Shown: one piece after another, positions 12,578-22,368 of the stretch
Position numbering within the stretch: the first letter of the stretch is position 1
Layout: every line of letters begins with the position of its first letter
Source of the DNA: Pseudomonadota bacterium
Lineage (GTDB): Bacteria; Desulfobacterota; Anaeroferrophillalia; Anaeroferrophillales; Tharpellaceae
Length of the DNA: 64,000 nucleotides
NCBI GenBank assembly: GCA_011049115.1
Contig: DSCM01000102.1
Span: 174-64,173, forward strand
Direction: 5' to 3'
The notes under the pieces: model-generated
Told to the model about the DNA's origin: nothing
Seen by the model: only the letters and a program-made list of their open reading frames with translations
Database searches by the model: none
Translations under genes and position numbers: made by a program

Positions 12578-13066
12578 TCATGCGCAACAACATTTTTTAT
12601 ATTTTTTACCGCTCCCGCAGGGACAAGGATCATTACGACCGACTTTATTATGTTCTCTGACCACCTGTCTGGGAACCACCCCTTGTCCGTCATAAAAATA
12701 CCAGTCACCCTCATGGCGTTTGAACGATGAAAGCTCATGATGAGTTTTGGCTTTATCCTTTTGCCGAAAATGGGCAACAAATTCAATTCTGCCTTCCTCA
12801 TCGGCTTGCTGTCCGGCTTCAACATTAATGATTTCGAGATGATCCCATGTTGACTTTTCAGCCCAGTTGCGGGCCGTGGTCGCTTCGTACTTAGGTAGTT
12901 GATCGGGATGGGTTGTATTCTTGACGAAATCCATTTCCATTTTGGCGTGGGCGCTGTAACGGGCCCGTAAAAGAGCCTCCGCAGTATCCGCTTTGGATTC
13001 ACCTTCGATAAGGGGTTCACAGCATTGACTATAATCTTTTCCCGAACCACAAGGACAATCACTCAT
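12578..13066 (-). CDS. YchJ-family (UPF0225) protein with SEC-C metal-binding motifs at both termini
   Basis: N-terminal [13 protein letters not shown] and C-terminal [13 protein letters not shown]. Confidence 0.8.
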
Positions 13067-13387
13067 AGATTCTCAATCCTCTAAAAATATTTACCACAAT
13101 AAAAGTACGCAAACTTTTACCAATCTCAGGCTGCAGGCGAATTGCAAAGCTACATCCTTATGATTTCAACCTATGATAACATCTGAATAGTAAACGAAAA
13201 CTAGAAGAAGTCAAGTTTTTATAGAAAAACCAGCAGATTTTTATGGCGACAAACTGAATCCTATCGCGAAGATGAAATTACTCTCCCTTCGTAAACCATG
13301 GCAATTGTCGGGACAGTCTACGCTGCGGGGATTTAAATCAGGCGGTAGTCTCAGATTGCTAAGCTTGGCAGCGGTTTATTTTCATTT

Positions 13388-14173
13388 TCAGACCAGCGTC
13401 GCAGCCCACTCCAAAACTTTATCTGAATAAGCTTTTTTATCGATCAATAAACTTTTCCCGTTGCGATAGATTAAAACACGAGGGGACGATTTGCGCCCAT
13501 GCAACGGCCCAGCATAGTAATACTCAAGAGCATGACGCCAGGATGAGAGCTCGGTTCGAGACCCCACTCCAGGCTTGCCATCCTGTTCAGCTTCTTCAAA
13601 CATCTCTCCCAAATACCAGCTCCCTGCCATGATCGAGGCGTGGGGATCAAGGGGATTATTCACCAAAACAATGCCGCGCTCACTTAACCTACGATGAGCC
13701 TCTGCAAACGTTGCTTTGATGGTCTGCATCAAGCCGGCCGCACTGCTTGAATCGGCCCGGGCATTGGGATCCCCCCCTGACTCCATAATTATTACTGCCT
13801 TGATAACCGCTTGCGGCACATTGAAGATTCTGGCCGCCTGATCAATCGATTCCTGCCAGGGGGCAAGTTTTTTTTGAATTATAGTGGTGACGTTTTTATT
13901 ATAATCAGAGTGTTTTGCTCCAGCCTTGGGGTTGGTGATCGCCGGAACGGGAGACTCCAAGGGAATGAATACTTTGCGCAAGCGATCCCAGGGATCGCTT
14001 GCATCATTTTCCTGGGGCTTGGAAAATCTCCTCCGTTTGTCCTTTTCCCCTGCATAATTATGCTGCAGGCGTATCCAGGGATCCTGGTCTTCCTGGGCAG
14101 CCGCATCGGTCCAGACCAAGAGAAGAAGAATCAGAAAAAAAACACCTAAATTTTGTGGTGATTTCATGATCAA
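13388..14173 (-). CDS. Secreted lytic transglycosylase (SLT domain)
   Basis: Signal peptide followed by an SLT catalytic region (MESGGDPNARADSSSAAGLMQ). Its start overlaps the upstream ExbD-like stop (ATGA). Confidence 0.75.
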   Translation of the reverse strand: MIMKSPQNLGVFFLILLLLVWTDAAAQEDQDPWIRLQHNYAGEKDKRRRFSKPQENDASDPWDRLRKVFIPLESPVPAITNPKAGAKHSDYNKNVTTIIQKKLAPWQESIDQAARIFNVPQAVIKAVIIMESGGDPNARADSSSAAGLMQTIKATFAEAHRRLSERGIVLVNNPLDPHASIMAGSWYLGEMFEEAEQDGKPGVGSRTELSSWRHALEYYYAGPLHGRKSSPRVLIYRNGKSLLIDKKAYSDKVLEWAATLV

Positions 14174-14643
14174 CGCAACTTTTCGGCAAACGCAATGTTA
14201 ATTCCCTGTTCACCCAAATATCTGAAGGCGGCGAAATATTCCGCAAGAGAAACGTGGTTGATGTTGTCGGCAGCCAGATAGATAACCTCTTCCGCACCTC
14301 CCCCGGTCTGCGTTAGTCGGGAGATTCGACCATCCTTGCGCAAGGCTTCCAGATCCCTCCAGGGATGATAGCTGCGCCCGGCAAAAACGAGGCTGATTTC
14401 AGAGCCTTTTTTTTCCAGATGGCCGATTTTGTGGTTTTCAACGGCAGCGAAACGGGAATTACCGGCTTGATGACTCTGCGGAGCTTTAAGCTCCGCTTCT
14501 CGGGAACGGCGTTCTTCGGTTGTCATTAGCAACATAAAGGTAAAAACCATGACTAAGATAAAAAGATAGGCGAAAAGATCTTTACCTGGATCAAGCGCGT
14601 TCTGGTTTAGCCGGCTCATGCCGCCTCTGCGATAATGCCCCAT
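14170..14643 (-). CDS. ExbD/TolR-like biopolymer-transport protein (single transmembrane helix plus periplasmic domain)
   Basis: Short cytoplasmic N-terminus, one transmembrane helix (LFAYLFILVMVFTFMLLM) and a roughly 110-aa periplasmic domain. RBS AAAGGA. Lies immediately downstream of a MotA/ExbB-like gene. Confidence 0.6.
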   Translation of the reverse strand: MGHYRRGGMSRLNQNALDPGKDLFAYLFILVMVFTFMLLMTTEERRSREAELKAPQSHQAGNSRFAAVENHKIGHLEKKGSEISLVFAGRSYHPWRDLEALRKDGRISRLTQTGGGAEEVIYLAADNINHVSLAEYFAAFRYLGEQGINIAFAEKLR

Positions 14644-14645
14644 TT

Positions 14646-15230
14646 TTAAATCCTTTCACTGCATATTTCACCGATACGCAGTCCAATCAGGGTTTCAAGC
14701 CGTTTCATTCTCGTCATCAGATATCTTGAATAGATCAAAGTCACTGTCAGCCCGCCAATCACACCAGCGCCCAGGGAGGTGTACAGCGCCGTCGCCAAGC
14801 CATGGTTCCAGGCTGCGGCGAAAACCACGGCTGCGCTCTCACCCCCGGCAAGACCGGCGAACATTTCATTAAAGGCTCCGATTGACCCAAAAATGGTGCC
14901 GGCAAAACCAATCAGAATCAAGGTGTTGACATAGCCGTTGAGGGCCGTAAAATGAATGCCGATACGACTTTCCACTTCCGACCAGATGGCATCAACAATA
15001 GCTTCCCGGGCCGAACCTTCAGTGGCTTGCAGACGCCGGAATAACGGCACCAGAAAAACCAGAGCAGCATGTTTGCCGACCTTTTCCTGATAACTTTCAT
15101 CGGCAACGACCACCCCCCGTAAATAATCGTAGATCAAGGTCAGACGATGTACCATCAGATAGAGATAAAACAAAAAAATCAAACCGAAGAAGACGCCGAA
15201 ATTATGTAAAAACCAGCTGGCAAACTGCAT
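14646..15230 (-). CDS. MotA/TolQ/ExbB-family proton channel
   Basis: Three transmembrane segments and the family motif GFAGTIFGSIGAFNEM. 194 aa. Confidence 0.75.
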   Translation of the reverse strand: MQFASWFLHNFGVFFGLIFLFYLYLMVHRLTLIYDYLRGVVVADESYQEKVGKHAALVFLVPLFRRLQATEGSAREAIVDAIWSEVESRIGIHFTALNGYVNTLILIGFAGTIFGSIGAFNEMFAGLAGGESAAVVFAAAWNHGLATALYTSLGAGVIGGLTVTLIYSRYLMTRMKRLETLIGLRIGEICSERI

Positions 15231-15247
15231 GATTATCCCCGTCAGGT

Positions 15248-16636
15248 TCAGATTAAGCCCGCCGCATGCAAGGCCGCAAGATCAGGAGCGTTACAGAACG
15301 AGCATGGATCAAGCTCAATGCTTCGACCATCGTGCGTAGCAAGAGAAAGAGGAACGAAGACCCCGAAAGCCCCCCCCCCTGGACCTTCCAGTACGAACGT
15401 TCGTCCCAGAACATCAACTTCTTCCGGTTTGACCCCAGCCTTCAGCAGACCTTTTTCCAGGCTCCAGGTAAAAGCCTGGTTAACCCTGGTATAAATCGCT
15501 CGCTTGACGAAATCGTAGAGATAATAACGAACAGCGGAAATCTGCTCCGGATAAAGCCCGGCCCGTTTCAGTTCCGGCCCCCACTTTTGCCAGGGGTTAT
15601 CAACCTCGATCACCGTACTGGAAAAACTTTCCAGTGAGGCCGCGGGGATCAAACTGCCGTCATCCAGGTCAAGACAACGACCATCCTTGAGCAGGGCCAC
15701 GGCTTTCATTTGCAGAAAGCTATATGATTCCCGCAGATTTTCGATACGTAAAGGAATTATTTGCTGCGGCGAGCGCTCCTTTTCTCCTTCCTTGCGCCAG
15801 GCCTGATGGAGTTGGGTATATTTATTTCGATCAAGCTTCAATTTGGGAAGAACTGTCGTTTTTGTCATCTTTGTCTTTTTTGTCAGAGACGACAAAGGCT
15901 GTTTCTCCATGTTCATGGAATTCGTATCTTTTTCGGCTGTTTTCGGTGAAACCTGGTCCTGAGAGGAGCGGATTTTTTGAAGTTCATCTTCCTGTAAAGT
16001 TGGAAAGTTTTTTTTCACCAAACTTTCAGCATAACTTCGCAGCTGCTGCCGGTCTGATTCCGATAAAAGCTGAACTGCGGTCTTACCTGAGTCAGCTGCA
16101 ACATGGTTACGGCTATGCAGGTCGGTGACGATTTCAGCCTTATTCTCTAGGATTTCCGGTTCCGGATCGAGGACATCATCTTGCGAAAGAACAGCCGAAG
16201 ATTCCGTTTCAACCTGGTTCTCCGTCTCACCCACCAACTCTTCACCGGCGACAAACAGCGAAGTATCCTCGCCCTTGCTTTCAGGTTTTACCTCTGGAGC
16301 TGCCAACGCGGCTGTCGCAACCAGATCTTTCGACTCTGTTTTTTCGATTTTTCCCGTTGGTGGCAAGGGATCGGATTGAGCCTCTGTGGGAAGATCCGCT
16401 TCCGGTTCGAATGCCTGAGTTTCCACCGGCGACCCCTTCTTTTTCAGCGCAACGGGTGCCCGCTCAGCGGCCATTTTTTCGGGAGTAAACAGATGTCGAA
16501 CAATGACTACGGCCTCATCGACGGGCCGGTGCAACTGAAAAAGAAGACCGCAAACCCCGATAAAAACCAGAAAAAATACCAGGCTGACGCGGCCGGTTTT
16601 AAGTCTGCCATTGTTGTATACAAAAAATGAGTGCAT
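15248..16636 (-). CDS. Hypothetical membrane-anchored protein (N-terminal transmembrane helix, long acidic/Pro-rich linker, about 200-aa C-terminal globular domain)
   Basis: RBS AAGGA. The topology is TonB-like, but no TonB C-terminal signature is recognisable. Confidence 0.55.
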   Translation of the reverse strand: MHSFFVYNNGRLKTGRVSLVFFLVFIGVCGLLFQLHRPVDEAVVIVRHLFTPEKMAAERAPVALKKKGSPVETQAFEPEADLPTEAQSDPLPPTGKIEKTESKDLVATAALAAPEVKPESKGEDTSLFVAGEELVGETENQVETESSAVLSQDDVLDPEPEILENKAEIVTDLHSRNHVAADSGKTAVQLLSESDRQQLRSYAESLVKKNFPTLQEDELQKIRSSQDQVSPKTAEKDTNSMNMEKQPLSSLTKKTKMTKTTVLPKLKLDRNKYTQLHQAWRKEGEKERSPQQIIPLRIENLRESYSFLQMKAVALLKDGRCLDLDDGSLIPAASLESFSSTVIEVDNPWQKWGPELKRAGLYPEQISAVRYYLYDFVKRAIYTRVNQAFTWSLEKGLLKAGVKPEEVDVLGRTFVLEGPGGGAFGVFVPLSLATHDGRSIELDPCSFCNAPDLAALHAAGLI

Positions 16637-16730
16637 CAGCTGAATCCTTACTTACCCATAGAGATCAAGATCAGAAACGGTTAACTCACCGGCGGAAAAC
16701 TAACGCGTTCACCGCCGGCAACAACTGCTT

Positions 16731-17444
16731 TTACAGGGCATCAACCAGCCTGGCATTGATGATCGGCGACTCCGGGGTCTCTGACCGCTCGCGCCAAAGA
16801 TCGCACTGCCCGGTAATCCTAAGATTGATTTCCGGCCAAGTCCGACCGAGATCGACGGCTTTGGCCTGGTAAGCTGAGAATTGCTCCCCGTTAAGCCATT
16901 TTTTGACGATCCTGCGGTTTTCCTCAAGGTCACTGAAACCACTCAGATCGTTGTTTGTCATGGCTTCACAGATATCAAGCGCTTGCGTCAGAAGATCCAG
17001 ATAGATATCGATCTCCTCCTCAACGTTGATTTTCGTTCTCAGATATTTTTCCTGAGTAAACTTTCTGCGCGTATTGATGGTGCGAAGCGCGGCCAGATCC
17101 TGGGAATCTTCGGGCAGTCCCTTGAACACCTCGTTATCCCTGGCAAAATCCAAATCCTGTTTATAATCACTGTAACGGGCTAGTTTAGTGCCATAGAGCA
17201 CAGCTTTTTTGAGATTGATGACATAGGTGGCAAAATCTATTTTCCTTTGATTGTTATAAATATTTTCCTGGCTGAATTTCTGTTTCAGCCTGCCCCCCAT
17301 TTCTCCGGTTTCCTTCTCAAGCTCGGGTAACGCCGCTTCCGCGTAGTATTCATAAAGTGAGGCGGCGTGAGCGTCGTTGGCAGCCGCCAGACTCACTCCA
17401 GCCGAAAAAACGAGAATAATCATCAATAGTAATTTTTTTTTCAT
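16731..17444 (-). CDS. Hypothetical secreted/periplasmic protein (signal peptide)
   Basis: MKKKLLLMIILVFSAGVSLAAANDAHA signal peptide. RBS AAGGAG. Confidence 0.55.
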   Translation of the reverse strand: MKKKLLLMIILVFSAGVSLAAANDAHAASLYEYYAEAALPELEKETGEMGGRLKQKFSQENIYNNQRKIDFATYVINLKKAVLYGTKLARYSDYKQDLDFARDNEVFKGLPEDSQDLAALRTINTRRKFTQEKYLRTKINVEEEIDIYLDLLTQALDICEAMTNNDLSGFSDLEENRRIVKKWLNGEQFSAYQAKAVDLGRTWPEINLRITGQCDLWRERSETPESPIINARLVDAL

Positions 17445-17481
17445 GGCAAACTCCTTGTCGGTCTATCCTCAGAGGTTATTG

Positions 17482-18549
17482 TTACTGCCAACTCAAACGG
17501 GCCTGTCGCAAAAAGTCGAGTTCTTCTTCAACACTCAAAACCTCACCGCTGATGCCAGTACTGCTGACCACTCGGATTTCTCCCAGGCCAGCCAAGACAT
17601 CGTTGACCATTTCATCAAGCACCCCACCCAGTTTGTTGGTGGCGCTATTGACTAAAGAAAGGGTATTCCGCAATTCTTCAACATTAGGAAATCCCAGATT
17701 AGCCATCAGTCCCGGAGTCCCCGTCCCCCCGACTTCGGCAACCGGGGTTATCTTGGCGAAGACATTATAAAGATTAGCCAGCAGATCGCGGAAGCGATTT
17801 GAGATATCACTGCCATCAGCCCTGATTTTTTCACGAACGAGACCTGAATACTGCTGGTTCATAGTCGCAACCTTGACCCTGGCTTCGTAAAGACGCCGCC
17901 GCTGTTCCACCTGAAGCAAACGTTTCTTGATTCGATTGTACTTCTGCAACAGACGTTTTTGGTCTTTTTCGTTTTCGGCTTCCTGATATTCTTCAAGGGC
18001 CTTTTGGGCTTCGTCGGAGGCCTCGGCAAAACGTCCTTTTTCATCTTCCAGGTAGTATTCCAGGGCAAGTTCGTAGTTTGTGTTGATGGATCGGGTTGCC
18101 TGACTGTCAACCAATGAAGCCGCCACGGACTGATCAAATTGATCCAGCGCCAGCAGGAGAGGCTCCAGGTTCTGGTCGCAGGCATCTTTCAACCTGCCGA
18201 CTTCAGATAAAATACGACCGTTGAGATGGGCCCGGCGGGCCGCACCTTCCGGCTCATGGGGATTGAGCAAGTCGGAGGCTTCCAGTTGGTTGCGAGTGTC
18301 AAGAAGCTCCTGCAGAGCAACCGTACTTTCGGAAAACTCCTGAAAAAGAAGCTGCGAAGAATTTTTCACCTCATTGCCGCTACGCTCAACCCGCAATCTT
18401 GATTTCTGAGCGATCTGAACAGCGCGATCCGGGGTTTGCCCGGCGGTCAGGGAGCCTTGTCCCACGACGGGAAGGCTCAGCAGAAGCAGAGCTCCGGCCA
18501 AGCCCCGGAAAAAACTCCTCCCCTGCGCGTTAAGAAACATGTTTCGCAT
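17482..18549 (-). CDS. Hypothetical secreted coiled-coil protein
   Basis: Start taken at MRNMFLN (18549, RBS AAGGAG), followed by a signal peptide. The long central segment is charged and heptad-like (EEYQEAENEKDQKRLLQKY...). Confidence 0.55.
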   Translation of the reverse strand: MRNMFLNAQGRSFFRGLAGALLLLSLPVVGQGSLTAGQTPDRAVQIAQKSRLRVERSGNEVKNSSQLLFQEFSESTVALQELLDTRNQLEASDLLNPHEPEGAARRAHLNGRILSEVGRLKDACDQNLEPLLLALDQFDQSVAASLVDSQATRSINTNYELALEYYLEDEKGRFAEASDEAQKALEEYQEAENEKDQKRLLQKYNRIKKRLLQVEQRRRLYEARVKVATMNQQYSGLVREKIRADGSDISNRFRDLLANLYNVFAKITPVAEVGGTGTPGLMANLGFPNVEELRNTLSLVNSATNKLGGVLDEMVNDVLAGLGEIRVVSSTGISGEVLSVEEELDFLRQARLSWQ

Positions 18550-18623
18550 GGCTTTCTCCTTGATTTTTGCTAGCACTAAAAATTTTAAAGCACGTAAAGA
18601 GTTAACAACGGGGAGCCTGATTA

Positions 18624-19154
18624 TCACTGAAACATTTTCCGATAAAGTTCCTGGTCAAGACGGCGACAAAGCTCCATGGTTTTGACCAGGAGCCGGTCAT
18701 CGCGAGTCCTGGATTGATTAACCAGTGTGGCGCAGTAGGCTCGCAGAAACTTACGGTCGATCTCACGATAGGCTTCACGGCTGCGATCCAGGTTCTCGAA
18801 ATAGCGATACACCGCAAGATGAAAAAACTTGTCGTACTGTTTTTGATTAAACACTTTGACCGCCTGCAAAAGATGTTTACGGGGCAAATCACGACCGTCT
18901 TGTAGAGCTTTCTCCATCAAAGGAATCCAGCAATTATAAATACATCCATTGCATTCTTCGAGCAACGCCTCATCAAGCAGGCGGACGATTTCAAAATCAG
19001 TTAACCTGTAATAGTTCTCACCCAGAGCTACTTCACAGCTGGGTGGAGCCAGGGCCGTGGTATTGTGAGAGGCACAGCCTGTCAAACCCATAAGCCACAG
19101 AAAAATTCCTCCCATCATCAAGATCAAGCCGTTGCGATATGTTCTCTTTTCCAT
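18624..19154 (-). CDS. Hypothetical lipoprotein
   Basis: Lipobox LMGLTG|C within the signal peptide. Several Cys pairs (CEVA..., CNGCIYNC). Confidence 0.55.
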   Translation of the reverse strand: MEKRTYRNGLILMMGGIFLWLMGLTGCASHNTTALAPPSCEVALGENYYRLTDFEIVRLLDEALLEECNGCIYNCWIPLMEKALQDGRDLPRKHLLQAVKVFNQKQYDKFFHLAVYRYFENLDRSREAYREIDRKFLRAYCATLVNQSRTRDDRLLVKTMELCRRLDQELYRKMFQ

Positions 19155-19551
19155 AATAATTCCCCCCCCGGTTTAGGATTGCCGAACCCCCATTATTTAT
19201 TTTGCCGCGCTGATGGCGATTACACCTGACTTCCTTATCGAAGAGAAAAAATAGTTTTCAAAAAAAATATGCAGAAGCGATCAACTTGCCGAAGTTTATT
19301 TTTAAGAAGATCCTCAATGGGGCGAGGAATGAAAACGGATAGCCGCTCCTGGTTTGAACTTGCTTGCAATTTACGATGACTGCCTTTATATAGTGCGATT
19401 TTGCATTTACTATCATTGTCGGTTGAACGGATTTCGAATTCTTGACGACGGGATTAAAGGTTCAGCCTGAAGTTTATAGCGCAAAATCAATTATCGGGTT
19501 GAAAAGGTCATTTTTTTTTCGATAATCTTCTCGGAGCAGGATCTGATTGCC

Positions 19552-20304
19552 GTGATGCGAACCAAAATCACCCCCCGACTGAAAGCAAGCGACCAAAGGA
19601 TGATCCAGAGAATTGCCAACCGCGTCTTTATCCGCTACACGCCCGGCGGCAGTAATGGACGGGCTTTGACCCGCGAGGAACTTTTTCACTACGGGGTTAT
19701 CGGTTTACTTGAAGCGCAAAAAAATTACGTTTCCGAAAAAGGGGTGGCCTGGGAGGTTTTCGCGGCCTTCAGAATTGAGGGTGAAATGCTCGATCATATT
19801 CGCAAGGCGCCGATGATCAGGCTGCCGCAAAAGATTCAAGAACAGGTCCGGGAGATCAGGAAGGCCGGAAATGAACTTGAACAACAGGGCTTACCGGCAA
19901 CGCCGATTGAGATTGCCAAGAAACTGGGTTGTGCGACCGACACGGTCACACAACATCTGGCTCTGGTTCCTTCGCTGAGCCCTCTGGCCGAGGAGTGCAA
20001 CCCCGATAACAATGAGAACGGCAACCCGGGGGTGATCCTGGCCGACGACAACGCGGAAACCGACCCCCACGATAAGCTGCTGCGCCAGGAACTTTTGCAA
20101 ATCCTGATGCATTGCCTGGAAAGTCTGCCGGAGACCCGCGACCGCGTTATCGTCAAGGCAAGAAAGCTTGAAGACATCACCCTGCGGGAACTCTCCAAAG
20201 CTTTTGACTGTTCAATCGAATCCATCCGCAAACGTGAAAAGACGGCGCTGCTTCAGTTGCGGGAATGTCTGCAACGACATGGTTGGCTGGCAGCCCCCCG
20301 CTAA
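19552..20304 (+). CDS. Sigma-70 family alternative sigma factor (FliA/WhiG / group-3-like)
   Basis: Region 2 looks like ELFHYGVIGLLEAQKNY...AAFRIEGEML. Region 4 helix-turn-helix is LRELSKAFDCSIESIRKREKTALLQLR. Confidence 0.75.
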   Translation: MMRTKITPRLKASDQRMIQRIANRVFIRYTPGGSNGRALTREELFHYGVIGLLEAQKNYVSEKGVAWEVFAAFRIEGEMLDHIRKAPMIRLPQKIQEQVREIRKAGNELEQQGLPATPIEIAKKLGCATDTVTQHLALVPSLSPLAEECNPDNNENGNPGVILADDNAETDPHDKLLRQELLQILMHCLESLPETRDRVIVKARKLEDITLRELSKAFDCSIESIRKREKTALLQLRECLQRHGWLAAPR

Positions 20305-20379
20305 GCTGCACGTTTTGTTTTTGCACCTCGATTTATAGATTTCAGCAAAGCCACCAAACCGGGTTGAAATATCTATGGA

Positions 20380-20970
20380 GTGGAATTGACTATGGCTAAT
20401 GAAATTGCTAACAAGAGTCTGGAAGATATTTTCATTTTCTGGCGCGACCATCCCAAACAAATTTCCCCCTCTGCCGAGACTCGCCATTTCGACGAAAAAA
20501 CCCTGATCCGACTGGCGGCGGATCGGGGACTAGCCGAGGCCGAGGAAGAAGAGCTCAGGCATCTCGACAACTGTGCCACCTGCCTTGCGGCCTGGTCGGC
20601 CTGGCGAAGGGCTTTCAGCTTCGCAGCCGGAGCCGACATGGAGGAACAGGATTTTCCTCCGAGCTCTGAGATAGATGGCGGTTACGGCTATCTCGAAGCT
20701 GCAGCCAGTTCCTCAATAACGACCCAGGGTTTGGTTCTGGAAAGTCGCTGCGGCGCTTATCGGCTTGAAATTCTGCCAAACCGGGAAAATCCGAAGGAAG
20801 GATTAATCGTGTTGCGCGCCGAAAAGCATAAGGCTGCGGGGAAATTTTCGGTTCGGGATCGCAATGGGCGGGAGATTCTGACCGGTTTTCTTGAAAATGG
20901 TCGGCTGGCCCGTCCCTGCGCTGATTTCAGCGCTTTGGACTTAAGTCTCTGGACGGTGTGTCGGGGGTAA
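20380..20970 (+). CDS. Putative anti-sigma factor (ZAS-type HxxxCxxC zinc motif)
   Basis: LRHLDNCATCLAAW carries H-x3-C-x2-C. It sits immediately downstream of the sigma factor gene. Confidence 0.5.
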   Translation: MELTMANEIANKSLEDIFIFWRDHPKQISPSAETRHFDEKTLIRLAADRGLAEAEEEELRHLDNCATCLAAWSAWRRAFSFAAGADMEEQDFPPSSEIDGGYGYLEAAASSSITTQGLVLESRCGAYRLEILPNRENPKEGLIVLRAEKHKAAGKFSVRDRNGREILTGFLENGRLARPCADFSALDLSLWTVCRG

Positions 20971-22368
20971 GTGCAAGTGGGCCGCTCGAATTCACCAGTC
21001 TGGTTGCCTTTTGCCAGCGGAAACAGCGCCAGGATAGAGCTTTCACTCTATAACCCGGCAACGGAGCGCAGCCGTCCGATTGAAGCCTACATGGTCAGCG
21101 ATTTGGGCAACGATCTCAGCCGGAGTGCCAGCCGTGCGGCAGAAACGGTTTACGCAATTGCCCATGAGGCCGGTTGTGCCCCACCACCGACGGTAGTCGG
21201 TTTCGATCTGCAAGGGCTTGAAAACGGTGCCTCAATCGTTGGCCAGAGCAGCGGTCTGGCCTTGGCCTTGGCCCTGGCCGGCAGACTTTGGCCGGCGCTG
21301 ACGCCGGTTTCCCTGGCGGCTACCGGGGAAATCTCCCGCAGCACCGATGGCGGCCCTTTGCAAAAAATCGACGCGATTGAAGCCAAAGGCCGGGCTGCGC
21401 TGTCCCGGCTTTCCCCGGGAAGTTATTTTCTCTACCCGGCAGAGAACGACCCGGAGCTCAGCGCCGAATTAAAACAGGCCTTGGCCGAGAAGCAAATTCG
21501 GTCTTTGCCGGTTAACAGTGTCGCTGAAGCGTTGGCATTTATTGTCCCGGAAAGCGCCGGTTTAGTCGGCCGCAAGTCAGAAACCAATTTACTACCTAAG
21601 TCTGCGGCCGAAAGCAGCGCACAATATTACAAGCATTTTCTGCCGTTCCTGCTGGCAATCATTCTGATGACCTTTGCGATTTTCAAAAGCTTTAATTTTT
21701 CACAAAAATCTGATGCCGTAAAGTTTGCGGCCCGGCCGACGCTTTCCGATGCAGGTCAAAGCCCATCTTCCTCCCCGGCTTTTTTTAAAAACATCAAACA
21801 GCCATCTGAAAGCCATACAACTTCTTCGCCGACAGCTGTTGCAACGACTTCTGAACCGCTAAGCCAGGCACAAGAAAGCTCTCTCCGGCCAGTCCATGGA
21901 AACGAAGCAAACCTTGACCGGCAAGCTGTGGCCCGGCGCCCGACCATCACCCTTTCAGGCAATTCCGGATTGGCCGATCGCCTGGCGCAATGGACAAAGA
22001 CCCGTTTACAGGCCTCCCTCGATGCCGATCGCGACCTCTCCGGCAAGCTCCTGTCTCTTTCCGGACGTGTCGAATTAATTGAAATCCAGGAAAGCTGGGA
22101 CAGTGACGAAGACCGTCTCAGCTCTTCAATCACGGCCGGTTTTAACGGAGAGGCCAGTCTTGTTGGGGATAAGGAGCGCCGAGTCCTCAAGCTGCCGCCT
22201 CTGACCGTCAGCGGCGGTCGTCCTCTGCGTCAGCAACTTCCGGATATCGCAGCCCTTCTCGTAGCTCGCATTATCAACAACCTGAGCCCCAGGGTTGTTG
22301 CCGGCGGAGCTCCGAAGTCACCTGATCGGCCCCGTTCAAGCGGTGGTGGCGACCAGGGTTTTGAATAA
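20971..22368 (+). CDS. Membrane-anchored protein with N-terminal Lon-like (S16) peptidase domain, one transmembrane helix and a Ser/Pro-rich periplasmic region
   Basis: GQSSGLALALALAG...AATGEIS...PLQKIDAIEAKGRAALS...FLYPAEN runs parallel to the E. coli Lon sequence GPSAGIAMCTALVS...AMTGEITLRG...IGGLKEKLLAAHRGG...LIPFEN, with a candidate Ser-Lys dyad. GTG start abuts the upstream stop. Transmembrane helix FLPFLLAIILMTFAIF. Confidence 0.55.
   Translation: MQVGRSNSPVWLPFASGNSARIELSLYNPATERSRPIEAYMVSDLGNDLSRSASRAAETVYAIAHEAGCAPPPTVVGFDLQGLENGASIVGQSSGLALALALAGRLWPALTPVSLAATGEISRSTDGGPLQKIDAIEAKGRAALSRLSPGSYFLYPAENDPELSAELKQALAEKQIRSLPVNSVAEALAFIVPESAGLVGRKSETNLLPKSAAESSAQYYKHFLPFLLAIILMTFAIFKSFNFSQKSDAVKFAARPTLSDAGQSPSSSPAFFKNIKQPSESHTTSSPTAVATTSEPLSQAQESSLRPVHGNEANLDRQAVARRPTITLSGNSGLADRLAQWTKTRLQASLDADRDLSGKLLSLSGRVELIEIQESWDSDEDRLSSSITAGFNGEASLVGDKERRVLKLPPLTVSGGRPLRQQLPDIAALLVARIINNLSPRVVAGGAPKSPDRPRSSGGGDQGFE

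What the first reader, a model, noticed from the sequence alone, without database searches (positions are those of the whole stretch)
13388..19154. Uncharacterised envelope gene cluster built around an ExbB/MotA-ExbD-type proton motor and a lytic transglycosylase
Seven co-directional minus-strand genes with tight spacing or ATGA overlaps. In transcription order they are: lipoprotein (176 aa, several Cys pairs), secreted coiled-coil protein (355 aa), secreted protein (237 aa), TM-anchored protein with an acidic/Pro-rich linker and unknown C-terminal domain (462 aa), MotA/TolQ/ExbB-like channel (194 aa, GFAGTIFGSIGAFNEM), ExbD/TolR-like protein (157 aa), and an SLT-domain lytic transglycosylase. 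The 462-aa protein has TonB-like topology but no TonB C-terminal signature, there is no TonB-dependent receptor and no Pal/TolB, and none of the four unknowns has a recognisable family. A PMF-driven stator pair coupled to a peptidoglycan-cutting enzyme and periplasm-spanning coiled-coil proteins is the pattern seen in trans-envelope machines (Tol-Pal, Agl-Glt gliding, flagellar and secretion-system assembly), but this gene combination does not match any of them. It is also transcribed divergently from a dedicated sigma / anti-sigma / Lon-like module (next finding).
Basis: partly seen in the sequence, partly recalled or inferred. Interest (0 to 1): 0.75.

Follow-up and report, generated by a model that had tools for sequence, protein, structure and literature searches.

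The report
Orphan proton-motor envelope operon with own sigma
A seven-gene operon found only in a few groups of sediment anaerobes pairs a very divergent ExbB/ExbD-type proton motor with a cell-wall-cutting enzyme and four proteins of no known family, under its own dedicated sigma factor, so it looks like an undescribed relative of the Ton and Tol envelope machines.

Summary
Seven tightly spaced minus-strand genes lie at 13388-19154. The same seven genes, in the same order, occur in every one of 31 related loci where the contig is long enough (Thermodesulfobacteriota and Ca. Tharpellota).

What each gene is:
- g5 is a divergent MotA/TolQ/ExbB channel. Its Pfam score is just under the cut-off, but 16 of 18 relatives match.
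- g6 has no sequence match. It has an invariant Asp at the start of its single TM helix, and ExbD is the top (weak) structural hit for its model.
- g7 is an active-looking SLT.
- g1-g4 match nothing in Pfam, NCBIfam, PADLOC or PDB profiles.
- The confidently modelled C-terminal domain of g4 has no structural relative. It is not TonB, TolA, TolB, Pal or CpoB.

New findings:
- A sigma-28-like promoter, TTGAAAA-N13-TCGATAA, occurs twice in the window: once facing g1 and once facing the divergent sigma gene. It recurs upstream of cluster genes in other genomes.
- The membrane-anchored Lon-type protease next to the anti-sigma ends in GF[DE]-COOH. Unrelated co-regulated lipoproteins elsewhere carry the same tag (26 ORFs against 0.14 expected).

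Best reading: a new Ton/Tol-like, proton-driven trans-envelope system with a self-regulating sigma circuit. Its substrate and biological role are inferred, not shown.

The parts
18624..19154 (-). g1: lipoprotein, 176 aa. Lipobox LTGC, invariant Cys40 and Cys75, conserved C-terminus ...LY.K[MLF]F-x. No known family.
   Evidence: ORF. Lipobox and Cys conservation. No Pfam, NCBIfam, PADLOC or PDB match.
17482..18549 (-). g2: secreted protein, 355 aa. The most conserved of the unknowns (43-81% identity between loci). No known family.
   Evidence: ATG 18549, RBS AAGGAG. Conservation. No PDB or Pfam match for the family profile.
16731..17444 (-). g3: secreted protein, 237 aa. No known family.
15248..16636 (-). 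g4: bitopic inner-membrane protein, 462 aa. TM helix at 17-35, an acidic/Pro-rich disordered linker of about 230 aa, and a conserved alpha/beta C-terminal domain (residues about 264-462) with no solved structural relative. Its topology resembles TonB/TolA.
14646..15230 (-). g5: divergent MotA/TolQ/ExbB-type channel subunit, 194 aa, 50-78% identical across the family.
   Evidence: PF01618 at 21.1 bits (cut-off 22.9). 16 of 18 relatives match. E. coli ExbB phmmer hits. The invariant GFAGTIFGSIGAF and TALYTSLG motifs align with ExbB TM2/TM3.
14170..14643 (-). g6: ExbD/TolR-like partner, 157 aa. One TM helix preceded by the invariant DPGKDLFAYLF (Asp22), plus a small alpha/beta periplasmic domain.
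13388..14167 (-). g7: secreted SLT-family lytic transglycosylase, 259 aa from ATG 14167 (261 aa from TTG 14173).
   Evidence: PF01464 at 57.3 bits. The catalytic E-S and GLMQ motifs are invariant in 26 of 26 homologues. Start codon read.
19236..19261 (-). Promoter-like motif TTGAAAA-N13-TCGATA(A), 82 nt upstream of g1 and facing the operon.
   Evidence: 0.15 matches expected by chance in the window. The same motif lies upstream of g1 in 10 other distinct loci.
19499..19524 (+). Second copy of the same motif, 28 nt upstream of the sigma gene. This implies autoregulation.
   Evidence: The same motif lies upstream of the sigma gene in 6 other loci.
19552..20304 (+). r1: group-3, FliA/WhiG-like sigma factor, 250 aa.
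   Evidence: Sigma70 r2, r3 and r4. TIGR02479 at 94.9 bits, below the cut-off of 189.6.
20380..20970 (+). r2: soluble putative anti-sigma, 196 aa, with a conserved H-x3-C-x2-C motif.
   Evidence: The motif is present in all 11 homologues read. No TM helix. No family match.
20971..22368 (+). r3: membrane-anchored Lon-type (S16) Ser-Lys protease domain without an AAA+ module, 465 aa. TM helix at 223-241 and a periplasmic part ending in GFE-COOH.
   Evidence: Family profile against PDB Lon proteases, E 5.6e-9, and invariant S93 and K139. Lon_C in 6 of 10 relatives. TM helix. C-terminal GF[DE] in 11 of 12 homologues.

Best explanation
This is a lineage-restricted, previously undescribed relative of the Ton and Tol systems.

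Inferred mechanism:
1. g5 and g6 form an ExbB/ExbD-type proton-driven motor in the inner membrane.
2. The motor energises g4, a TonB/TolA-like protein. Its long flexible linker crosses the periplasm and carries a family-specific C-terminal domain.
3. The SLT enzyme g7 opens or remodels the peptidoglycan so the assembly can span the wall.
4. The lipoprotein g1 and the secreted proteins g2 and g3 are the periplasmic or outer-membrane partners.

Shown by sequence:
- The operon is driven by its own sigma-28-like sigma factor through a conserved TTGAAAA-N13-TCGATAA promoter.
- The same promoter precedes the sigma gene, so the circuit is autoregulated.

Inferred regulation:
- The sigma is held by the H-x3-C-x2-C protein r2.
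- It is released by the membrane-tethered Lon-type protease r3.
- The periplasmic tail of r3 ends in GF[DE]-COOH, the same tag carried by unrelated co-regulated lipoproteins in other genomes.
- The tag is therefore proposed to be the handle the machine recognises. That would link the machine's activity or occupancy to its own expression.

The cargo and the cellular role (envelope maintenance, lipoprotein handling or signalling) are not known.
For: Conserved unit:
- g1-g7 occur in the same order in 31 loci from several orders and two NCBI phyla.
- Intergenic gaps are 2-94 nt, with no convincing internal promoter or terminator on the coding strand.

Motor:
- g5 matches MotA_ExbB in 16 of 18 family members, and E. 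coli ExbB finds the family.
- The invariant Thr of the 'GT' motif aligns with ExbB TM2.
- B subunits are known to escape sequence searches and are commonly assigned by adjacency to the A subunit (PMC12505986).

Transducer:
- g4 has one N-terminal TM helix, a disordered linker of variable length and a confident C-terminal domain.
- A distant family member carries TonB-like KP/EP repeats.

SLT:
- The catalytic motifs are invariant.

Regulon:
- The motif has 2 exact copies in the window, both in the 397-bp divergent region (0.15 expected).
- Across the non-redundant loci there are 29 relaxed matches against 2.0 in shuffles. Most lie directly upstream of g1, the sigma gene, or the accessory genes C12, C14 and C17.

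Protease:
- The Lon S16 fold and the Ser-Lys dyad are supported.

Tag:
- 26 of 407 ORFs end in GF[DE], against 0.14 expected.
- All 26 belong to r3, C10, C12 or a second SLT.
- r3, C10 and C12 are not homologous to one another.
Against: - No experiment or expression data exists for any member.
- The window's g5 is below Pfam's gathering score, and the family profile finds no solved ExbB, TolQ or MotA by sequence.
- Nothing shows that g4 contacts the motor, or that any component binds GF[DE].
- In the window itself only r3 carries the tag. The tagged lipoproteins C10 and C12 are absent from these 64 kb.
- g1-g3 were not modelled, so their roles are guesses.
- No outer-membrane barrel is encoded in the core cluster.
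- The sigma module was not detected next to the cluster in several loci whose contigs reach upstream (for example L014, L025, L027, L034).
Confidence: 0.55

Rival explanations
1. It is a highly divergent paralogue of Tol-Pal. g5/g6 would be TolQ/TolR and g4 would be TolA. g1 would be a Pal-like outer-membrane lipoprotein and g2/g3 would be CpoB- or TolB-like periplasmic partners. The system would tether the outer membrane and help septal wall cleavage together with the SLT.
For: - The component count and topologies are the same: a 3-TM channel, a 1-TM partner, a long bitopic protein, a lipoprotein and periplasmic proteins.
- An OmpA/Pal-family gene lies near the cluster in 4 distant loci.
- Tol-Pal is known to be functionally linked to wall-cleaving enzymes (general knowledge; review PMC7391070 listed, not read).
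Against: - Profiles of g1-g4 show no similarity to E. coli TolA, TolB, Pal or CpoB (all hhalign probabilities below 5%; phmmer finds nothing).
- g1 has no OmpA-type wall-binding domain.
- The gene order is reversed relative to tolQRA-tolB-pal.
- A dedicated inducible sigma circuit does not suit a housekeeping division system.
- Distribution is patchy: 28 hits among 185,579 species genomes, with strict patterns.
Confidence: 0.15
2. It is a TonB-type energiser for uptake across the outer membrane. g4 would be an unorthodox TonB that serves a receptor encoded elsewhere.
For: - g5 is found by E. coli ExbB but not by TolQ.
- ExbD is the top structural match for g6.
- g4 has TonB-like topology, and a distant member carries KP/EP repeats.
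Against: - g4 has no TonB_C domain by Pfam or by structure.
- There is no S-x3-H motif in its TM helix (read from the sequence).
- No TonB-dependent receptor appears in any of the 31 neighbourhoods.
- Four extra conserved periplasmic or lipoprotein genes and an SLT have no place in a Ton system.
Confidence: 0.1
3. It is a surface-motility or polymer-export machine of the Agl-Glt/Nfs type. A TolQR-like motor would move periplasmic and outer-membrane proteins along the envelope.
For: - It combines a TolQ/ExbB-like motor, a TonB-like protein, lipoproteins and secreted proteins, as in the Myxococcus Agl-Glt system (established knowledge; AglRS are placed among the 'generic ion transporters' in PMC12505986).
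- Control by a sigma-28-like factor recalls motility regulons.
Against: - No outer-membrane barrel, TPR-rich Glt-like component or cytoplasmic platform is encoded.
- g1-g4 have no detectable family.
Confidence: 0.07
4. It is an anti-phage or envelope-breach sensing system in the manner of Zorya. A MotAB-like motor would sense envelope perturbation and trigger a response, here through a sigma factor and proteases.
For: - Phyletic distribution is patchy.
- Flanking genes vary between orders.
- Secreted caspase-family proteases and a Lon-type protease belong to the extended regulon.
- One MAG appears to hold two copies (L017 and L020).
Against: - No PADLOC model matches any of g1-g7, r2 or r3. 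The sigma matches MzaA only through its generic sigma-70 regions.
- No nuclease or other cytoplasmic effector is present.
- g5 lacks the long ZorA tail, and g6 lacks a wall-binding domain.
- Within the window's clade the locus is syntenic between pdxJ-acpS and ychJ-galE, which is not island-like.
Confidence: 0.06

Closest known systems
Ton system (ExbB-ExbD-TonB)
   Same: - A MotA/TolQ/ExbB-family channel gene is followed directly by a small single-TM partner with a conserved Asp in the helix.
- A bitopic protein with a long Pro-rich or acidic linker and a globular C-terminal domain is present.
- ExbB and ExbD are the nearest detectable relatives of g5 and g6.
   Different: - There is no TonB_C domain, no S-x3-H motif and no TonB-dependent receptor.
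- Four extra conserved envelope proteins and an SLT are present.
- Control is by a dedicated sigma-28-like factor, not by Fur or an ECF sigma.
- Both motor subunits are too divergent to find solved Ton proteins by sequence.
Tol-Pal system (TolQ-TolR-TolA-TolB-Pal-CpoB)
   Same: - It has about seven genes: a motor pair, a long periplasm-spanning protein, an outer-membrane lipoprotein and periplasmic proteins.
- It is functionally associated with wall-cleaving enzymes.
   Different: - g1-g4 have no detectable relation to TolA, TolB, Pal or CpoB.
- g1 has no OmpA-type domain.
- The gene order differs.
- It is inducible and patchily distributed rather than a core housekeeping system.
Agl-Glt / Nfs gliding and spore-coat machinery of Myxococcus
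   Same: A TolQR/ExbBD-like motor is coupled to TonB-like proteins, lipoproteins and periplasmic proteins for a task other than uptake.
   Different: - It is much smaller.
- It has no outer-membrane barrels, TPR proteins or cytoplasmic components.
- No sequence comparison could be made here.
Sigma-28 (FliA) / FlgM checkpoint of flagellar assembly
   Same: - The sigma is of the FliA/WhiG type.
- Its promoter, TTGAAAA-N13-TCGATAA, resembles the sigma-28 consensus TAAA-N15-GCCGATAA (consensus recalled from established knowledge).
- Regulon expression is plausibly tied to the state of an envelope machine.
- The best NCBIfam match for g7 is a flagellar assembly lytic transglycosylase, far below its cut-off.
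   Different: - There are no flagellar genes.
- The channel is of the 3-TM ExbB/TolQ type and its partner lacks a wall-binding domain.
- The anti-sigma is an H-x3-C-x2-C protein, not FlgM.
- Release would be by a tethered Lon-type protease rather than by export.
Zorya anti-phage defence (ZorAB plus effectors)
   Same: A non-flagellar MotAB/ExbBD-like motor is embedded in a patchily distributed multi-gene cassette of unknown input.
   Different: There is no match to PADLOC models, no ZorA tail, no ZorC/D-type effectors, and the other components are periplasmic.

Membership tests
MotA/TolQ/ExbB proton channel family (PF01618) | Match to the family profile at or above the curated score | tested here: inconclusive
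   The window protein scores 21.1 bits against a cut-off of 22.9 (E 2.8e-4). 16 of 18 close relatives match at E<0.01, best 1.4e-5. E. coli ExbB finds 12 family members at E 4e-4 to 1e-2. The family profile finds no solved ExbB, TolQ or MotA.
MotA/TolQ/ExbB proton channel family (PF01618) | Conserved polar residues of the ion path in the last two TM helices (Thr of the G-T motif in TM2; Thr/Ser in TM3) | tested here: met
   The invariant GFAGTIFG aligns with ExbB GLFGTVWG, and the invariant TALYTSLG aligns with ExbB AEAL.ATAIG. The hhalign probability itself is low (2.6%) because the template alignment is shallow.
MotA/TolQ/ExbB proton channel family (PF01618) | Assembly as a pentamer around a dimer of the partner subunit | not testable with these tools
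   No multimer prediction was available.
ExbD/TolR family (PF02472) | Match to the family profile or to ExbD/TolR sequences | tested here: not met
   There is no Pfam or NCBIfam hit. The PDB profile search, phmmer and hhalign all find nothing significant.
ExbD/TolR family (PF02472) | Single N-terminal TM helix carrying a conserved Asp, encoded directly downstream of the channel gene | tested here: met
   DPGKDLFAYLF is invariant in 34 sequences (Asp22), with a TM helix at 23-41. g6 lies downstream of g5 in all loci that include both.
ExbD/TolR family (PF02472) | Periplasmic domain with the ExbD/TolR alpha/beta fold | tested here: inconclusive
TonB | C-terminal TonB_C domain | tested here: not met
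TonB | N-terminal TM anchor plus an extended Pro-rich periplasmic spacer | tested here: met
   TM helix at 17-35. The modelled part of the linker is predicted disordered. Total length varies across the family. KP/EP repeats occur in the distant member P0295. The S-x3-H motif of the TonB/TolA anchors is absent (read from the sequence).
Tol-Pal system | Presence of TolA, TolB, Pal and CpoB homologues | tested here: not met
   phmmer with the E. coli TolA, Pal and CpoB proteins finds nothing in the core cluster. Pal finds only accessory OmpA-family genes in 4 distant loci. hhalign of the g1-g4 profiles against TolA, TolB, Pal and CpoB gives probabilities below 5% throughout.
SLT lytic transglycosylase (PF01464, family 1) | Profile match above the cut-off and the catalytic Glu-Ser and GLMQ motifs | tested here: met
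   57.3 bits against a cut-off of 21.3. E-S and G-L-M-Q are invariant in 26 of 26 homologues.
FliA/WhiG (sigma-28) sigma factors | Match to TIGR02479 at the curated score | tested here: not met
   94.9 bits against a cut-off of 189.6. It is the best-scoring family. Regions 2 and 4 score above their Pfam cut-offs and region 3 is at its cut-off. r1 is therefore a relative of sigma-28, not a member.
FliA/WhiG (sigma-28) sigma factors | Promoter with a CGATAA-type -10 element and an A-rich -35 element | tested here: met
   The consensus TTGAAAA-N13-TCGATAA comes from 24 sites upstream of cluster genes. Recognition by r1 is inferred, not shown.
Lon protease (S16) | Proteolytic domain with the Ser-Lys dyad | tested here: met
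   The family profile matches PDB Lon proteolytic domains at E 5.6e-9. S93 and K139 are invariant and align with the dyad. Lon_C matches 6 of 10 relatives.
Lon protease (S16) | AAA+ ATPase module fused to the protease | tested here: not met
   The protease domain is N-terminal and is followed by a TM helix and a periplasmic region. No AAA+ match was found. r3 is therefore Lon-like, not a Lon.
Zorya and other catalogued defence systems | Match to PADLOC component models | tested here: not met
   No hit for g1-g7, r2 or r3.

The most novel reading that the evidence does not exclude
This would be a new class of proton-driven envelope machine that recognises a C-terminal GF[DE]-COOH tag on periplasmic proteins and lipoproteins.

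- The TonB-like g4, or the lipoprotein g1, would grip the tag, much as TonB grips a TonB box.
- The same grip on the tail of the membrane-tethered Lon-type protease r3 would report the machine's load.
- r3 would then destroy the anti-sigma and release a sigma-28-like factor.
- This would be a mechanical or occupancy checkpoint, analogous in logic to FlgM export.
Probability: 0.2. Interest if true: 0.85.

Novelty: new variant of a known kind. Interest (0 to 1): 0.66.

Why it matters
- Only a handful of jobs are known for ExbB/MotA-type 5:2 motors: flagella, Ton, Tol, gliding, type 9 secretion and Zorya. A seventh partner set, made entirely of unannotated proteins, would widen what these motors are known to power.
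- The partner set includes a fold-less-in-PDB 'TonB-like' output domain.
- The cluster comes with testable handles: a simple promoter motif, a three-residue C-terminal tag and an invariant Asp.
- Desulfosarcina ovata, named in public records for locus L001, carries the whole cluster, so experiments may be possible outside metagenomes.
- All members are currently labelled 'hypothetical protein' in public records.

Tried and rejected
- **Family searches.** Pfam, NCBIfam and PADLOC scans of all ten proteins gave nothing for g1-g4, g6 or r2.
- **PDB sequence profiles.** Searches with the g5, g6, g2, g3 and g1 families gave nothing significant. Only the Lon-like domain of r3 matched.
- **Comparison with E. 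coli Ton/Tol proteins.** hhalign against ExbB/TolQ and ExbD/TolR aligned the expected regions, but with negligible probability because the templates were shallow. hhalign of g1-g4 and g6 against TolA, TolB, Pal, CpoB and TonB was negative.
- **Internal paralogy.** None among g1-g4. None between the periplasmic part of r3 and the tagged lipoproteins.
- **Wider relatives of g4.** A search of 1.84 billion representatives with the g4 profile found only the same architecture. Distant members have no Pfam domain.
- **Metagenome scans.** One failed for lack of a conserved stretch. One found nothing. One gave a single locus with the same seven genes.
- **RNA families.** Rfam gave no match in the window.
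- **Literature.** Searches found no description of this cluster.
- **Rejected: flagellar stator remnant.** g5 fits the ExbB/TolQ-type region, no flagellar genes are present, and g6 lacks a wall-binding domain.
- **Rejected: chance adjacency.** The gene order is invariant in 31 loci.

Full report
**1. The observation**

The mechanical ORF list shows seven co-directional minus-strand ORFs filling 13388-19154. Reading the junctions fixes two start codons.
- g2 starts at ATG 18549, behind an AAGGAG ribosome-binding site.
- g7 most likely starts at ATG 14167, two bases after the g6 stop.

Gaps between successive genes are 74, 37, 94, 17, 2 and 2 nt. A consensus scan finds no convincing internal promoter or terminator on the coding strand. 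Base composition is unremarkable. No Rfam family matches anywhere in the window.

**2. Conservation**

The g5 protein has 194 relatives in the 5.8-billion-protein collection, and the 120 listed are 55-100% identical to it. Every named source organism is a delta-proteobacterial or Desulfobacterota lineage. Every source name for the window's own proteins is 'hypothetical protein'.

Two look-ups already showed the same ten-gene arrangement:
- Desulfosarcina ovata, in a 7.6 Mb record;
- a 213-kb metagenome contig.

A scan of one genome per species (185,579 species) with two strict peptide patterns returned 28 loci. tblastn of the window's proteins against all loci shows g1 to g7 in the same order and orientation wherever the contig is long enough. 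A gene-cluster map confirms this. A metagenome locus carrying a very distant g4 (36% identical to its own subgroup) still has all seven genes in order.

The hosts are:
- Desulfobacterales (Desulfosarcina, Desulfococcus, Desulfobacula);
- Desulfatiglandales;
- Desulfuromonadales (including Geopsychrobacter);
- Ca. Tharpella aukensis, the nearest clade to the window.

NCBI places Ca. Tharpella aukensis in its own candidate phylum. The describing paper reports these organisms as mesophiles of hydrothermal sediments (PMC9213671). The window shares flanking synteny (pdxJ-acpS on one side, ychJ-galE on the other) with that clade.

**3. The motor pair**

*g5.*
- It matches Pfam MotA_ExbB at 21.1 bits, just under the 22.9 cut-off.
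- 16 of 18 relatives match at E<0.01.
- E. coli ExbB, taken from the annotated K-12 record, finds twelve family members by phmmer. TolQ finds none.
- The family is very strongly conserved. GFAGTIFGSIGAF and TALYTSLG are invariant and align with the ExbB TM2 and TM3 segments.
- A family profile nevertheless finds no solved ExbB, TolQ or MotA chain. This is an outlying branch of the superfamily.

*g6.*
- It has no sequence match to anything.
- It is the right size and lies directly downstream of g5.
- It has one TM helix (23-41), preceded by the invariant DPGKDLFAYLF. Asp22 there is the counterpart of the essential Asp of ExbD, TolR and MotB.
- An AlphaFold2 model built on 34 sequences gives a long TM helix and a small alpha/beta periplasmic domain, with pLDDT of about 71-88.
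- I treat this as weak structural support that becomes reasonable in context.
- A recent survey of MotAB homologues notes that ExbD and TolR typically fall below detection thresholds, and it assigns B subunits by adjacency (PMC12505986).

**4. The TonB-like protein g4**

- It has one TM helix (17-35), with positive charges before it.
- The modelled part of the acidic, Pro-rich linker is predicted disordered.
- The 200-residue alpha/beta C-terminal domain is predicted with pLDDT above 90.
- A profile search of 1.84 billion representative proteins finds only 116 family members. All have the same TM-linker-domain layout, at lengths of roughly 300-600 aa.
- Distant members have no Pfam domain.
- One distant member carries KP/EP repeats of the TonB kind.

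So g4 works like a TonB or TolA by topology but belongs to neither family.

**5. The other components**

- g7 is a family-1 SLT (57.3 bits). Its catalytic Glu-Ser and GLMQ motifs are invariant in 26 of 26 homologues.
- g1 is a lipoprotein with an invariant lipobox Cys and two further invariant Cys residues.
- g2 and g3 have signal peptides.
- Family profiles of g1, g2 and g3 find nothing in the PDB, Pfam or NCBIfam.
- They are not related to one another.
- They are not related to E. coli TolA, TolB, Pal, CpoB or TonB.

**6. A dedicated sigma circuit**

The divergent genes are:
- r1, a sigma factor whose best family match is FliA/WhiG, well below the family cut-off;
- r2, a soluble 196-aa protein with H-x3-C-x2-C in all eleven homologues read;
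- r3.

The N-terminal 200 residues of r3 are a Lon S16 proteolytic domain.
- The family profile matches solved Lon protease domains at E 5.6e-9.
- Ser93 and Lys139 are invariant.
- Lon_C matches 6 of 10 relatives.
- The domain is followed by a TM helix and a periplasmic region, with no AAA+ module.

k-mer counting in the regions upstream of g1 led to a motif, TTGAAAA-N13-TCGATA(A).
- In the window it occurs exactly twice, even with one mismatch allowed.
- Both copies lie in the 397-bp divergent region. One faces g1 (19236-19261, minus strand). The other faces the sigma gene (19499-19524, plus strand).
- 0.15 matches are expected by chance.
- Across the non-redundant loci a relaxed form occurs 29 times, against 2.0 in shuffles.
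- The sites lie 8-105 nt upstream of g1, of the sigma gene, and, in other genomes, of the accessory genes C12, C14 and C17.
- The motif resembles the sigma-28 consensus, which fits the type of sigma.

The existence and placement of the motif are shown. That r1 reads it, and that r2 and r3 control r1, are inferred.

**7. Accessory genes and a C-terminal tag**

In the more distant loci the operon is followed or preceded by several accessory genes:
- lipoproteins C10 and C12, with no known family;
- a DUF4384 lipoprotein (C14);
- secreted caspase-family peptidases (C17 and C27);
- OmpA-family proteins (C22).

None of these is present in the window.

One feature stands out. Of the 407 ORFs called in all non-redundant loci, 26 end in Gly-Phe-Asp or Gly-Phe-Glu, against 0.14 expected from composition.
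- All 26 belong to r3 (11 of 12 homologues, including the window's ...GDQGFE), C10 (11 of 12), C12, or a second small SLT in one locus.
- r3, C10 and C12 are not homologous to each other.
- Short r3 forms that lack the folded periplasmic domain still keep the TM helix, the linker and the tag.

A shared extreme C-terminal tripeptide on unrelated, co-regulated, periplasm-exposed proteins is most simply read as a recognition signal.

**8. Proposed mechanism**

Shown:
- a conserved seven-gene unit;
- superfamily membership of g5;
- an active-site-intact SLT;
- a Lon-type Ser-Lys domain;
- a shared promoter motif in front of the operon and of its sigma gene;
- a shared C-terminal tag.

Inferred:
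- g5/g6 form a proton-driven motor that energises g4.
- g4 reaches across a wall opening made by g7 to act with or on g1-g3.
- The machine recognises GF[DE]-COOH.
- Engagement of r3's tagged tail couples the machine's state to proteolysis of r2 and release of r1.

I put 0.55 on the general statement: a Ton/Tol-like proton-driven trans-envelope system with its own autoregulated sigma circuit. I put about 0.2 on the specific tag-recognition checkpoint.

**9. Rivals**

- *Divergent Tol-Pal paralogue (0.15).* It fits the component count, but no component other than the motor is detectably Tol-like.
- *Ton-type uptake (0.10).* It lacks a TonB domain and any receptor.
- *Agl-Glt-like motility or export (0.07).* This could not be tested by sequence, and the hallmark barrels and TPR proteins are absent.
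- *Zorya-like defence (0.06).* Only the patchy distribution and the protease-rich neighbourhood suggest it, and no PADLOC model matches.

**10. Novelty and interest**

The motor is of a known kind. The partner set, the output domain, the regulatory circuit and the tag are not described in any library or paper I could search. I rate it a new variant of a known kind.

Interest is moderately high, for three reasons:
- the list of tasks known for these motors is short;
- the cluster offers simple, testable handles;
- a named organism in public records, Desulfosarcina ovata, carries it.

What limits the score:
- there is no functional clue to the biological role;
- the ExbD evidence is weak;
- distribution is restricted to little-studied anaerobes.

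Noticed in passing
window 22357-22368 (C-terminus of r3); L001-L030, families LONL, C10, C12: The extreme C-terminal tripeptide GF[DE] is shared by the Lon-like membrane protein and by unrelated lipoproteins of the extended regulon. It occurs in 26 of 407 ORFs against 0.14 expected, and nowhere else in the loci. It may be a recognition or sorting tag.
   Followed up: partly
window 13067-13387: The closest relatives (L002, L003, L007-L010) carry an extra lipoprotein gene (C11, about 240 aa, weak SH3_4 match) between the SLT gene and ychJ. The window has only a 320-bp gap there and no tblastn trace of C11.
   Followed up: partly
L015, L020, L023, L024, L025, L027: Secreted caspase-family peptidases (Peptidase_C14), one of which appears fused to a sulfatase-modifying-type domain by eye, lie next to the cluster in distant lineages together with DUF4384 lipoproteins and OmpA-family proteins. 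Some carry the same promoter motif.
   Followed up: partly
L001 position 1021 (minus strand): In Desulfosarcina ovata a further copy of the promoter motif lies 229 nt upstream of a 124-aa ORF downstream of the Lon-like gene. This suggests more regulon members of unknown function.
   Followed up: no
L017 and L020 (same MAG, SRP200020_co7_102): Two different copies of the cluster (g5 59% and 57% identical to the window) sit on two contigs of one metagenome-assembled genome. This is either a real duplication or a mixed bin.
   Followed up: no
L002/L005 2278-2743: A ParE-toxin / antitoxin-like pair is inserted between pdxJ and the Lon-like gene in one close relative. It is absent from the window.
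   Followed up: no
window 12578-13066 (minus strand): Just downstream of the operon lies a YchJ-like protein with SEC-C motifs at both ends. It is syntenic in the close clade only, so it is probably unrelated to the system.
   Followed up: no
whole window: The window matches a MAG deposited as 'Proteobacteria bacterium' (proteins HDS16743.1 and HDS16744.1). Its nearest relatives for this locus include Ca. Tharpella aukensis (Ca. Tharpellota), not Desulfuromonadales.
   Followed up: partly
window 20212-20529 (minus strand): A 105-codon stop-to-stop segment (a 91-aa ORF, 20212-20487, in the list) antisense to the end of the sigma gene, the following gap and the start of r2 also ends in GFD. It is most likely a chance shadow ORF.
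   Followed up: no
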